From a virus (taxonomy: Duplodnaviria; Caudoviricetes): a stretch of DNA of 41,114 bases. The notes beneath the pieces are model-generated. The model was not told the origin of the DNA and did not search any database. It saw nothing but the letters and a program-made list of their open reading frames with translations. The DNA is taken from positions 1-41,114 of IMG/VR virus record IMGVR_UViG_3300036987_000048. One strand, written 5' to 3'. The position numbers and the translations under genes are program-made. Shown piece by piece: positions 250 through 28,351 of the stretch (within the stretch, counting starts at the first letter, position 1; each line of letters opens with the position of its first letter).

Positions 250-379
250 CCCACTTAGTCCCGTTTCTTCTCACGGTTTTTCTCCGGCTGTTGGCGCATT
301 CAGTGCAATATTTCTGCTGTTTCCCGGACTTCTTTTTAATCTCAACAGTCTCTCCGCATTTTTCACATATGATTGTCAT
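242..379 (-). CDS. 45-aa zinc-ribbon protein (not in ORF track)
   Basis: MTIICEKCGETVEIKKKSGKQQKYCTECANSRRK...; two CxxC motifs; its ATG overlaps the MTase TGA (ATGA coupling). Confidence 0.65.
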   Translation of the reverse strand: MTIICEKCGETVEIKKKSGKQQKYCTECANSRRKTVRRNGTKWEK

Positions 380-1545
380 CGGTGAACCTCACAAATTGCT
401 TTTATTATTTGAAAGGCTACGGCGGGAACAATCGCATTACCTAGAGCCTTTAGTCGGTTAACTCTGTCCAATTTTTGGGGTAGCCCATCATCCACTCGAC
501 AAAGGCGGGTTGCAACTTCAATCCACGGGATTCCCCAACTACTTCCCCTAGATTGCATTTCCCTCTGTCCTCCTTCGCATCCTTGTGCATAAATTGCCTC
601 GGTGTCGGGAGCATGGCAATCCTCGATGCATCCACAATATGTTCCTGTTGATTCGGTCTGCTGTTGGTGGGCAACAATCCACACCCTATCCCTTCTATGG
701 GGCGCGTTGACGGCGCAAGCTGGAAGACAGAACGTTTGTGTTTCATAGCCTTGATTTTCCAATTCAGTAAGCAAATAGTCGAATACCACGCCCTGCTCAA
801 GACTAAGGAGTCCAGCAACATTTTCAAGGATGCACCACCTTGGCTTGACTTCGGCAATGACTCTAAAAGTTTCTTCCCAGAGCCAACGGTCATCGTTATG
901 GCCTCCTCGCTTCCCGGCACAACTGGCTGGCTGGCAAGGAACCCCTGCTGTAAGAAGGAATATTGGTTCATTTTTCACCCCTTTGGTGAGGACAGGTTCC
1001 GTGGTGTGATCTTGCATTATTGCAGTTGTAACAGAGGATTTGATAGTCGTCTGGCAACCCTCTTTTGATTGCAAGTTTCCATGTTTGAGATTTGTATTTT
1101 CTGCGTTCCGCATTACCATTGTTGTATTTATGGTCGATTGTGAGGAACTCTCTTTGTGATTCTCCGCAACAAACGCATTTCCCTCCGTAGTGGGCAAAGA
1201 TTTCTTGTTTTTTCCTCTCGCAGTATTCTCTGCGACTTTTTCTGTGTCTTTCGATGTTTTGTTCTCTCCAAGCGGCAACTCGTTTTGTGTTACACGGTCT
1301 GCAATACGACTCATTAGGAGCGACTTCGCTTTCCCTACATTCTGGGCATATTCTAGCCATTGATCCTCCGGTGCATAATGAAATGTTTTAATGTCATCCC
1401 AAATCGGTACTCCCTTAAAATTTTTCTGTAAGACCTTCTGGCAGAAAGGGTCTATCTCAACAAACTGAACCGTCTTAATTCCGTTCCACCTTGCCGCTAA
1501 AGCAAAGCCGCCAATGCCGGAGAACAAATCAATATGCGTTCTCAT
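376..1545 (-). CDS. dcm: C5-cytosine DNA methyltransferase, alpha polypeptide, with ~135-aa insertion
   Basis: Motif I DLFSGIGG, IV GVPCQP, VI ENV, VIII HRRDRVWI and X LGNAIVP are present. A canonical motif IX is not evident in this frame. A long insert lies between DDIKTF and LTAGVPCQ. Confidence 0.92.
   Translation of the reverse strand: MRTHIDLFSGIGGFALAARWNGIKTVQFVEIDPFCQKVLQKNFKGVPIWDDIKTFHYAPEDQWLEYAQNVGKAKSLLMSRIADRVTQNELPLGENKTSKDTEKVAENTARGKNKKSLPTTEGNAFVAENHKESSSQSTINTTMVMRNAENTNLKHGNLQSKEGCQTTIKSSVTTAIMQDHTTEPVLTKGVKNEPIFLLTAGVPCQPASCAGKRGGHNDDRWLWEETFRVIAEVKPRWCILENVAGLLSLEQGVVFDYLLTELENQGYETQTFCLPACAVNAPHRRDRVWIVAHQQQTESTGTYCGCIEDCHAPDTEAIYAQGCEGGQREMQSRGSSWGIPWIEVATRLCRVDDGLPQKLDRVNRLKALGNAIVPAVAFQIIKAICEVHR
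450..971 (-). CDS. Putative MTase beta polypeptide (TRD/motif IX) in an alternative frame, EcoHK31I-beta-like
   Basis: Contains MLPTP and a C-terminal LQPAFVEWMMGYPKNWT resembling motif IX. Has an SD-like GGGGTG, and its ATG overlaps the HNH stop. Confidence 0.7.
   Translation of the reverse strand: MNQYSFLQQGFLASQPVVPGSEEAITMTVGSGKKLLESLPKSSQGGASLKMLLDSLVLSRAWYSTICLLNWKIKAMKHKRSVFQLAPSTRPIEGIGCGLLPTNSRPNQQEHIVDASRIAMLPTPRQFMHKDAKEDRGKCNLGEVVGESRGLKLQPAFVEWMMGYPKNWTELTD
968..1360 (-). CDS. HNH endonuclease nested inside the MTase gene
   Basis: N-terminal CxxC..CxxC, then CVCCG..LTIDH..N..QILCYNCN HNH core; GGAGG SD at 1365-1369. Confidence 0.85.
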   Translation of the reverse strand: MARICPECRESEVAPNESYCRPCNTKRVAAWREQNIERHRKSRREYCERKKQEIFAHYGGKCVCCGESQREFLTIDHKYNNGNAERRKYKSQTWKLAIKRGLPDDYQILCYNCNNARSHHGTCPHQRGEK

Positions 1546-7263: not shown

Positions 7264-7656
7264 ATGAATCCAGTATTTACCGGCAGAATAGAAAAGGGCA
7301 AGTATATTCTCGATAACACGAACCGTTACCTTGTACAGGTCAGCAGACTTGAAGGGCAGAGAATTGAACTTGTATTAAGAAAAGAGAAAAGTCAGAGAAG
7401 CCTTAACCAGAACTCGTATTATCATGGTGTAGTTGTGGCGATACTTGCTGAATATTGCGGGTACGAGCCGGAAGAAATGCACGAAGCGTTAAAAGACAAG
7501 TTTCTTTCGGTGGGATTAGACGACCACGGCTTGAAGAAGATCAAAAGCACGACAAAGTTAAGCACAACTGAAATGGAAGATTACCTAGAAAAGATTAAAA
7601 GATGGGCGGCGACTGAACTGAATTGCTACATTCCAGATCCAAACGAGGCGATATGA
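7264..7656 (+). CDS. NinB/Orf-like recombination accessory protein
   Basis: RSLNQNSYYH..EEMHEALK..STTKLSTTEMEDYLEKI. Confidence 0.75.
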   Translation: MNPVFTGRIEKGKYILDNTNRYLVQVSRLEGQRIELVLRKEKSQRSLNQNSYYHGVVVAILAEYCGYEPEEMHEALKDKFLSVGLDDHGLKKIKSTTKLSTTEMEDYLEKIKRWAATELNCYIPDPNEAI

Positions 7657-8333
7657 ATATGTATAAAAAATGCACAAAATGTGGAGAGGAAAAACGACTA
7701 ACTGAATTTTTCATACGTAAAGACGGCGGAGATGGATATAGATCAAGCTGTAAAAAGTGTATGGCTACTGCTAAAAAAATATATGAAGTTTTAAATCGTG
7801 AATCTATTATAATCGCACGGAAAAAATATTACACAAACAATAAAGAAAAGATGCGAAAAGCAACTCAATTATGGATTAAAAACAATCCCGATAGAATAAA
7901 ACTCCTCCAAAAAAAATGGAATTTAGAAAATATTGATAAAAGACGTGAATATAGAAGAAAGGCTATGAGAAAAAAAAGACAATCAGTAAAGGGGAAATTA
8001 AACTCAAATATATGCATAGGGATCTGGCGTACTATACGTGGTACAAAATCAAATAGACACTGGTAGGTCTTGGTCGGATACACGATTGACCAACTAAAAG
8101 ACCATCTTGAAAAATTATTTACCAAAGAAATGACATGGGACAATTATGGAATTTTTTGGGAGATTGACCATAAAGTTCCTATTGCAGTATATAATTTTGA
8201 ACAGCCAGAAGATATAGATTTTAAATTATGTTGGTCACTGAAAAATTTACAACCACTGGAATGTTCTAAGAATAGAAGTAAGGGTGATAGCGTTGGAAAA
8301 CCATTTCAACCTTCATTGTGTATGTCTATATGA
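7653..8333 (+). pseudogene. HNH endonuclease interrupted by an in-frame TAG (8064-8066)
   Basis: ORFs 7623..8066 and 8070..8333 share a frame. Joined, they give CTKC..CKKC, a basic helix, RHW*VLVGYT..WEIDHKVP..CWSLKNLQPL..N. Confidence 0.8.
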
Positions 8334-27709: not shown

Positions 27710-28351
27710 TTAAATGTTATACGACTCTAAGTAATTAGCCGCCTTATGGAGAAGTTCTGGTGAGTCTTGAAGATGTCCTATTCCTATATTACATGGAGAA
27801 CACAACAATCCTCGTAATTCACCAGTAGTGTGGTTATGGTCAACAGCGAAATGTTTGTATCTTCCTCTTGGTTTATCTGAGCCACAAATTGCACATTTTC
27901 CATTTTGTTTGTTCAGCATTTCTTGGTACTCTACAAGAGTGATATTGTATTTATTTCTTAAGTGCCAACCGTGGGCAATTTTTCTGTTGTTGATATGGTA
28001 AAGTTTTTTCTTTTCTTTTTCTCTATCAGCAATTTTTACCCAATGTTCCTTAGAATGTTTACGCTGGCATTCCTTACATTCATTTCTCAATTTGTCCTTG
28101 GTGCGTGTTTTTCCATAATGAATATTAAATTCATTTATTGGTTTTTTAACTAAGCATTTTCGACAAATCTTGAATCCTTCGTCTGTTGACCAATCTTTCT
28201 TAGGTTTTTGTTTTTTGCGATAATTAGCAATGGTTACCTCATTCATACATTTCTTACATCGGTAACATTTCTTGTTCCTTGCGTACTTATTCGCATAAAA
28301 CAAATCTAATGACTTTTCTTCTCCGCACTTAACGCATTTTTGAGTTTCCAT
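27710..28351 (-). mobile_element. Free-standing endonuclease VII-family homing endonuclease gene
   Basis: Two N-terminal Cys-rich modules, then CAICG..VDHNHTTGELRGLLCSPCN..G..QDS..A.NYL; AT-rich insert after the capsid gene. Confidence 0.88.

What the first reader, a model, noticed from the sequence alone, without database searches (positions are those of the whole stretch)
968..1360. HNH nuclease gene overprinted inside a DNA methyltransferase without breaking its frame
Seen: a complete 130-aa HNH gene with its own GGAGG SD lies wholly within the MTase ORF in another frame. It exactly accounts for the ~135-aa featureless insert between motifs III and IV. The MTase frame has no stop across ~130 codons (about 0.2% by chance under a uniform-codon model). 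No intein ends or intron core are evident. Inference: a mobile endonuclease invaded a coding gene and is tolerated by dual coding instead of splicing. Alternatively the insert is bypassed, or the pair acts as a compact nuclease/MTase unit.
Basis: partly seen in the sequence, partly recalled or inferred. Interest (0 to 1): 0.82.

Follow-up and report, generated by a model that had tools for sequence, protein, structure and literature searches.

The report
Hidden HNH inside two-frame phage methylase
A likely selfish DNA-cutting gene sits out of frame inside a phage cytosine-methylase gene whose own frame stays open across it, and a third gene for the methylase's predicted second subunit starts on its stop codon; both tricks are already published separately, so this is a well-supported combined variant rather than a new principle.

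Summary
Observation confirmed. A 130-aa HNH/EndoVII-like ORF (968-1360, minus strand, GGAGG at 1369-1365) lies in the third frame of an unbroken 389-aa C5 methyltransferase ORF (376-1545) and accounts for a ~396-nt insert between motifs III and IV. Its 0.2% chance figure is too small (3-25% given this HNH's composition). Homologues settle it: the host frame is open in 10 of 11 other loci with this insertion. It is open in 11 of 11 loci where the family sits at other sites or in amino-methylases, but in only 3 of 98 non-nested relatives. At-risk codons make 0 stops of 134, against 341 of 821 in controls. Insert-bearing methylases are not one clade (AU p 2.7e-5), which fits homing. The kind was published in 2025 (ShiLan domain, PMC11855218), and this scan has noted it 19 times on other genomes, including the alpha/beta combination. 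This HNH is unrelated to ShiLan's and has a Shine-Dalgarno. No activity, expression or splicing was tested.

The parts
376..1545 (-). C5-cytosine methyltransferase alpha chain, 389 aa: motifs I-III, insert, IV (GVPCQ, G at 945), VI (ENV), VIII, X; no recognisable motif IX in this frame (motif labels recalled)
   Evidence: PF00145, 3e-38; best fold match M.HhaI, E 1.7e-8
968..1360 (-). HNH / endonuclease VII-like nuclease, 130 aa, third frame of alpha; CxxC pairs at 5/8, 20/23, 62/65, 110/113; D76-H77 and N114 are the likely catalytic residues (role recalled from His-Me nucleases)
   Evidence: phrog_2255, 2.5e-12; C62, C65, H77, C110, C113, N114 invariant in 23 of 23; pLDDT 91.6; nested relatives match endonuclease VII PHROGs
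1365..1369 (-). Shine-Dalgarno GGAGG of the HNH gene, 4 nt before ATG
   Evidence: purine-rich stretches precede the HNH start in L001, L002, L034, L035, L037 (by eye)
450..971 (-). Predicted beta subunit, 173 aa, second frame of alpha; ATG overlaps the HNH stop (ATGA 971-968); motif-IX-like LQPAFVEWMMGYPKNWT at 515-465
   Evidence: phrog_1008 DNA methyltransferase, 4e-21; same +1-frame motif in 110 of 282 methylase loci; unannotated +1 ORF under dcm genes of plasmids
975..989 (-). GGGGTG (981-976) before the beta ATG, partly paired in a 5-bp hairpin inside the HNH 3' end; candidate coupling element, not stronger than shuffles
   Evidence: z -0.23
1353..1397 (-). 14-codon beta-frame remnant MTLKHFIMHRRING* starting in the motif III DD codons; likely the ancestral beta start cut off by the insertion
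   Evidence: closest insert-free alleles read MTSQHS / MMTSKHS / MTTSRHS from the same codons, straight into beta
975..1375 (-). Approximate extent of the insertion (~396-399 nt); translated in alpha as a disordered loop (residues 83-191, pLDDT < 50)

Best explanation
A likely homing-type HNH nuclease gene, little more than its ORF and ribosome-binding site, lies in the motif III-IV loop of a phage cytosine methylase gene and is predicted to stay in the mRNA unspliced. Shown: three ORFs in three frames; stop avoidance in the alpha frame; conservation dominated by the HNH frame; patchy distribution. Inferred mechanism: ribosomes starting at 1545 read alpha straight through and carry the insert as a ~130-residue disordered loop outside the Rossmann core. 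Ribosomes starting at the internal GGAGG make the nuclease, which would cut insert-free methylase alleles of co-infecting phages and be copied in by repair. The insert landed on the region where the beta subunit normally starts. It closed the beta frame, and beta now restarts at an ATG overlapping the HNH stop. The loop is permissive because alpha in this family already reads through beta-frame modules there. Selection for an active alpha+beta methylase keeps the alpha frame free of stops.
For: Host frame open in 10 of 11 other unique loci with this insertion, found by HNH search and so not selected for an open host frame. The one exception, L046, has frameshifts in all three genes, including conserved motifs. 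Open in 8 of 8 loci where the family sits between motifs I-II or II-III of other C5 methylases and in 3 of 3 in N6/N4 methylases, against 3 of 98 non-nested relatives over 80 codons. At-risk codons: 0 of 134 make a stop in nested copies vs 341 of 821 in controls, while 54 of 158 safe sites end in A/G; 69 stops expected, 0 seen over 22 related loci. HNH-frame identity 65% vs host-frame 37%; nt identity 72/77/48% at HNH codon positions 1/2/3. L036, a 68%-identical HNH beside only a motif I-II remnant, has 2 stops in that frame. AU test rejects one clade of insert-bearing methylases (18 rows vs 35, p 2.7e-5). Two unrelated nuclease families occupy the same loop with alpha open (L244, L249). In the insert-free alleles displayed (45 of 58), candidate beta starts cluster in this loop; 29 of 35 mid-length inserts are beta-frame LPTP-like modules. 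AF2: insert disordered in alpha, HNH frame well folded.
Against: No expression, read-through, methylase or nuclease activity was measured. The single-locus chance of an open frame is 3-25%, and the 22 loci are related, so they are not independent trials. The trees are weakly resolved (12 of 147 branches starred), and the insert label was slightly clustered there (3 of 500 shuffles as low). 41 of 150 rows were dropped by the parser (9 of 27 insert-bearing). Labels of protein-only rows rest on host-frame profiles, not DNA. Patchiness can also come from repeated loss or general recombination. Structure searches gave only weak HNH matches (no Foldseek E <= 0.001; VIA Z <= 4.3, zinc fingers ranked first). 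The beta start is not always coupled to the HNH stop: an overlapping ATG/TTG is present in 6 of 11 loci. Beta was not aligned to M.EcoHK31I beta directly. Low pLDDT from a 12-sequence alignment does not prove disorder.
Confidence: 0.78

Rival explanations
1. Domesticated unit: the nuclease and the methylase work together (restriction-modification-like, or a nickase for phage recombination or packaging), and nesting keeps them linked.
For: The HNH has its own SD, is under purifying selection and its stop often overlaps the beta start (6 of 11). In L135 a relative lies directly upstream of a C5 methylase, stop on start.
Against: Most methylases of the family lack it (27 of 150 top proteins carry it). 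Unrelated nucleases replace each other in the same loop. The same HNH family sits in both C5 and N6/N4 methylases and, without any methylase, in most of the 98 controls.
Confidence: 0.1
2. The insert is bypassed (cryptic RNA splicing, ribosomal hopping or protein processing), and the open frame is a by-product or a backup.
For: Some relatives have motif III or IV duplicated around the insert (P0007, P0079, L044, P0102). A relative of this HNH interrupts a gene in L011 in an intron-like way.
Against: The insert is almost entirely HNH ORF, leaving ~5 nt for any splicing core. No Rfam intron match in the window, L001, L002, L011 or L033. No conserved intein-type ends in the alpha frame (by eye). 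RNA-level bypass would not require stop avoidance, which is seen.
Confidence: 0.06
3. The element is real and read through, but spreads passively by ordinary recombination of methylase modules or was lost repeatedly; no homing.
For: Trees are weakly resolved and cannot separate gains from losses. These methylases are mosaic, with variable modules in the same loop.
Against: The nuclease motif residues are invariant, and one family occupies several distinct sites in two methylase classes, as expected of a selfish endonuclease.
Confidence: 0.05
4. The open methylase frame is chance and the methylase is dead.
For: Single-locus probability is 3-25%.
Against: 21 of 22 other nested loci are open vs 3 of 98 controls; alpha and beta motifs are intact on both sides.
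Confidence: 0.01

Closest known systems
ShiLan domain / hidden out-of-frame HNH of mycobacteriophage methylases (Arsenault, Gosselin, Gogarten 2025, PMC11855218; Gosselin et al. 2023, PMC9957025)
   Same: HNH ORF in the third frame of a phage methylase, host frame free of stops, insert little longer than the ORF, no intein or intron signal, disjunct distribution, insert predicted to loop out. Also computational only.
   Different: No detectable similarity between the nucleases (hhalign probability 0.1%, BLAST E 1.4): ShiLan's is HNH_3-type, this one EndoVII-like. ShiLan gp65 carries a DPPY motif (amino-methylase); this host is a C5 methylase. ShiLan has no RBS per the paper; this has GGAGG. 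Here the host is itself two-frame, so all three frames are used in one gene.
M.EcoHK31I alpha/beta C5 methyltransferase (as described in PMC2836561, passages)
   Same: Beta chain encoded wholly in another frame of alpha; alpha has motifs I-VIII and X, beta supplies motif IX.
   Different: No nuclease insert is described for it in the passages read. Here the beta frame seems also to carry the LPTP-type variable modules. No direct sequence comparison with M.EcoHK31I was run.
[quoted passage not shown]
   Same: EndoVII-like endonuclease in frame 3 of a host-frame-open insertion in a phage gene.
   Different: Those sit inside a self-splicing intein; this insert has no splicing domain.

Membership tests
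ShiLan-type hidden HNH insertion (as a kind) | Insertion in a phage methylase relative to insert-free homologues | tested here: met
ShiLan-type hidden HNH insertion (as a kind) | No stop in the host frame | tested here: met
ShiLan-type hidden HNH insertion (as a kind) | HNH-type ORF in an alternative frame | tested here: met
   structure searches only weakly supportive (73, 90)
ShiLan-type hidden HNH insertion (as a kind) | No intein or intron features | tested here: met
   intein ends judged by eye (19, 26)
ShiLan-type hidden HNH insertion (as a kind) | Disjunct distribution across the host phylogeny | tested here: met
   AU p 2.7e-5; 18 of 27 insert-bearing rows; 21 changes, at least 4 forced
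ShiLan domain proper (homologous family) | Sequence homology to the ShiLan gp65 HNH | tested here: not met
Homing endonuclease | Cleaves the insert-free allele and drives biased inheritance | not testable with these tools
   needs a cleavage or mixed-infection assay
M.EcoHK31I-type alpha/beta C5 methylase | Second ORF nested in another frame of alpha, carrying motif IX that alpha lacks | tested here: met
   the motif IX label is recalled, not from a profile of M.EcoHK31I
M.EcoHK31I-type alpha/beta C5 methylase | Both chains required for activity | not testable with these tools
   shown for M.EcoHK31I in PMC2836561 passages; untested here
Group I/II intron | Ribozyme core flanking the ORF | tested here: not met
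   (Rfam gathering, no match); insert exceeds the ORF by only ~3-6 nt
Intein | Hint domain and N-/C-terminal splicing residues in the host frame | tested here: not met
   no Pfam/PHROG match for the host-frame insert; no fold; ends not conserved

The most novel reading that the evidence does not exclude
Dual-frame read-through is a general third route, beside introns and inteins, by which homing endonucleases live inside phage methylase genes. In two-frame alpha/beta methylases the nuclease captures the start of the beta subunit, so beta, and hence methylation, becomes dependent on translation of the parasite. Where beta has modules upstream of the site, all three frames are kept open at once (L044: 144 codons of triple coding).
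Probability: 0.25. Interest if true: 0.72.

Novelty: new variant of a known kind. Interest (0 to 1): 0.45.

Why it matters
The 2025 description rested on a few mycobacteriophage cases and had no test of selection. This family gives a clean one: stop avoidance at specific codons, a natural control that lost its host, several insertion sites and two methylase classes. It also offers a small construct (1.2 kb, three proteins) for the open questions: is the insert translated and tolerated, and does the nuclease home? Practically, such nucleases and beta subunits are missed by one-frame annotation, and 'long featureless inserts' in phage methylases should be read in the other frames. It is not a new principle, and the scan has already logged it on many other genomes.

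Tried and rejected
Pfam gave no hit for the HNH or beta; PHROGs did. Rfam found no intron. The PDB sequence search gave only PacI at E 0.26. Fold searches of the HNH model gave no significant match. RNA folding at the three start regions was no stronger than shuffles. No RNA holder was listed, so expression and splicing are untested; runs X3-X9 hold small shares and were not used for habitat. No joint skipping the insert appeared in four runs' contigs, which shows nothing about absence. A narrower look at junction-spanning contigs could not be obtained, so the exact insertion ends stay open. L046 was set aside as uninformative (frameshifts in all three genes) but is counted as the one miss in 11. 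The first tree had misparsed rows (P0005, P0025, P0100) and an unfinished careful search; it was redone on a subset. The tblastn of the HNH against 50,697 annotated phages gave 36 records, all under 60% identity; they were not checked for nesting. No complex prediction was run. Literature searches listed no paper combining an EcoHK31I-type gene with a nested HNH; the library lacks most subscription journals.

Full report
Context. The window is a 41-kb tailed-phage contig: terminase, portal, major head, tail, endolysin, ERF and replication initiator by PHROG/Pfam. The finding lies in the replication/early region on the minus strand.

Observation. ORFs 376-1545 (389 aa), 968-1360 (130 aa) and 450-971 (173 aa) occupy the three minus-strand frames. 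The first is a C5 methylase (PF00145; best fold match M.HhaI) with no stop across the insert. The second matches HNH PHROG 2255, and its nested relatives also match endonuclease VII PHROGs. It folds at pLDDT 91.6; structural matches to HNH nucleases are weak. GGAGG sits 4 nt before its ATG. This is the layout described for M.EcoHK31I (PMC2836561, passages). The same +1-frame motif was found in 110 of 282 unique methylase loci (the regex is strict). A contig from a second study matches 764-1700 without a difference.

Chance. For this locus alone an open host frame is not very unlikely: 6.3%, 25% or 2.8%, depending on the null, because the HNH is poor in the codons that create +1 stops. 0 of 522 overlapping 131-codon stretches of this phage's ordinary genes are open in either other frame.

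Homologues. HNH-based scans returned 162 loci that hit again, besides the window. After removing duplicates, 11 other loci carry the HNH between motifs III and IV; 10 have the host frame open, and L046 is frameshifted throughout. Eight more carry the family between motifs I-II or II-III of other C5 methylases, and three inside N6/N4 methylases; all 11 are open. Of 98 non-nested relatives with an 80-codon core, 3 are open (L011, L090, L143). One search printed 5 of 100 before L059 and L060 were recognised as nested; my first notebook entry has the old figure. L135 and L117 (near a methylase, not nested, with stops) were left out of both sets. At codons where a third-position A/G would create a host-frame stop, nested copies show 0 of 134 and controls 341 of 821; at safe sites nested copies use A/G in 54 of 158. 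These loci are related, so the counts overstate independence. Among the 11 same-site loci the HNH frame is 65% identical and the host frame 37%, with nucleotide identity lowest at HNH third positions. The HNH is thus the constrained product, and the host frame is constrained mainly to stay open. L036, 68% identical but beside only a motif I-II remnant, has two stops (one case).

Site. The insert is ~396-399 nt against 393 nt of ORF, leaving no room for an intron core; Rfam found none. In insert-free alleles with a beta frame (58; 45 displayed), candidate beta starts cluster within about 75 nt upstream of motif IV. The closest alleles start in the motif III DD codons. The window keeps a 14-codon remnant from those codons (1397-1353; my notebook entry 2 gives wrong coordinates), and the beta frame has several stops within the insert. 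So the insertion likely cut off beta's start, and beta restarts at the HNH stop. An overlapping ATG/TTG is present in 6 of 11 loci, and the HNH stop lies 16 nt before motif IV, in the codons just ahead of the host's DLL motif, in 6 of 11. In 29 of 35 alleles with mid-length inserts, the extra sequence is a beta-frame LPTP-like module read through by alpha, which offers a reason why this loop tolerates junk. AF2 leaves residues 83-191 below pLDDT 50 and models the core around them.

Mobility. Among the 150 parsed top methylase proteins (biased towards long inserts by the query), 27 carry this insert, 15 a second type and 6 a third. DNA loci L244 and L249 show the second and third types to be unrelated nucleases, in frames 3 and 2, with alpha open. 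The label needs 21 changes on a weak tree. With 18 of the 27 rows and the 35 nearest of 91 others, monophyly is rejected (AU p 2.7e-5). This fits homing but does not show it.

Known. PMC11855218 (parts 1-4 of 6 read; tables, legends and its GitHub data not seen) describes this kind: a hidden third-frame HNH in a phage methylase, stop-free in the host frame, not spliced, patchily distributed, without experiments. ShiLan's nuclease is not detectably related to this one, its host is an amino-methylase, and it has no RBS. PMC9957025 and bioRxiv 10.1101/2025.01.02.630785 were seen as passages, PMC12613952 as a listing only. Searches listed no paper on the combination with an alpha/beta methylase. 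Earlier notes of this scan report the kind 19 times and the combination several times, on other genomes; none was indexed for this HNH sequence. I had found the paper before consulting them.

Verdict. Real, selected and mechanistically intelligible: a new variant of a kind first published in 2025. Homing, read-through and beta coupling are inferred. Interest 0.45.

Noticed in passing
L044:1625-3694 (same as L089): All three frames are open across the HNH (HNH 144 codons, alpha 690, beta 475), with motif IV duplicated on both sides of the insert and an LPTP-type beta module upstream; 0 of 100 non-methylase relatives have that third frame open over 80 codons. Apparent true triple coding; P0102 looks similar.
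   Followed up: partly
L244:1596-2168; L249:1673-2086: Two unrelated nuclease families in the same methylase loop, one in frame 3 (PF01844 HNH) and one in the beta frame (HTH + phrog_2340), alpha open in both.
   Followed up: partly
L059:1707-3695; L060; L094:1173-3989: The same HNH family nested in N6/N4 methylases; L094's host frame has further long featureless stretches that may hide more nested genes.
   Followed up: partly
P0007, P0079, P0102 (proteins): Motif III or IV appears duplicated around the insert, suggesting target-site duplication on insertion, as noted for ShiLan.
   Followed up: no
L011:1143-1694: HNH relative lying between two ORFs that look like halves of one (probably capsid) gene, with ends resembling group I intron cores (recalled pattern; no Rfam match); its +1 frame is also open for 262 codons.
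   Followed up: no
L036:2489-2875: Close HNH relative following a truncated methylase motif I-II remnant and followed by an unrelated gene; the former host frame has gained stops.
   Followed up: partly
window:2897-2961 (-): Rfam int-alpA RNA match (42.1 bits, gathering 35.8) upstream of the replication initiator gene.
   Followed up: no
window:2951-3343, 7623-8066, 27710-28351: Further nuclease-like genes: a NinG/HNH-like ORF, an endonuclease-like ORF, and a free-standing endonuclease VII gene between the head gene and the next structural gene.
   Followed up: no
window:30665-31426 (-): A methyltransferase-like gene (phrog_8156) between portal and head genes.
   Followed up: no
run X4, record 19 (window 851-975): A short contig matches 851-975 with one difference and has 33 unmatched letters at one end, possibly an insert-free allele marking the 3' insertion end; which end is unmatched was not confirmed.
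   Followed up: no
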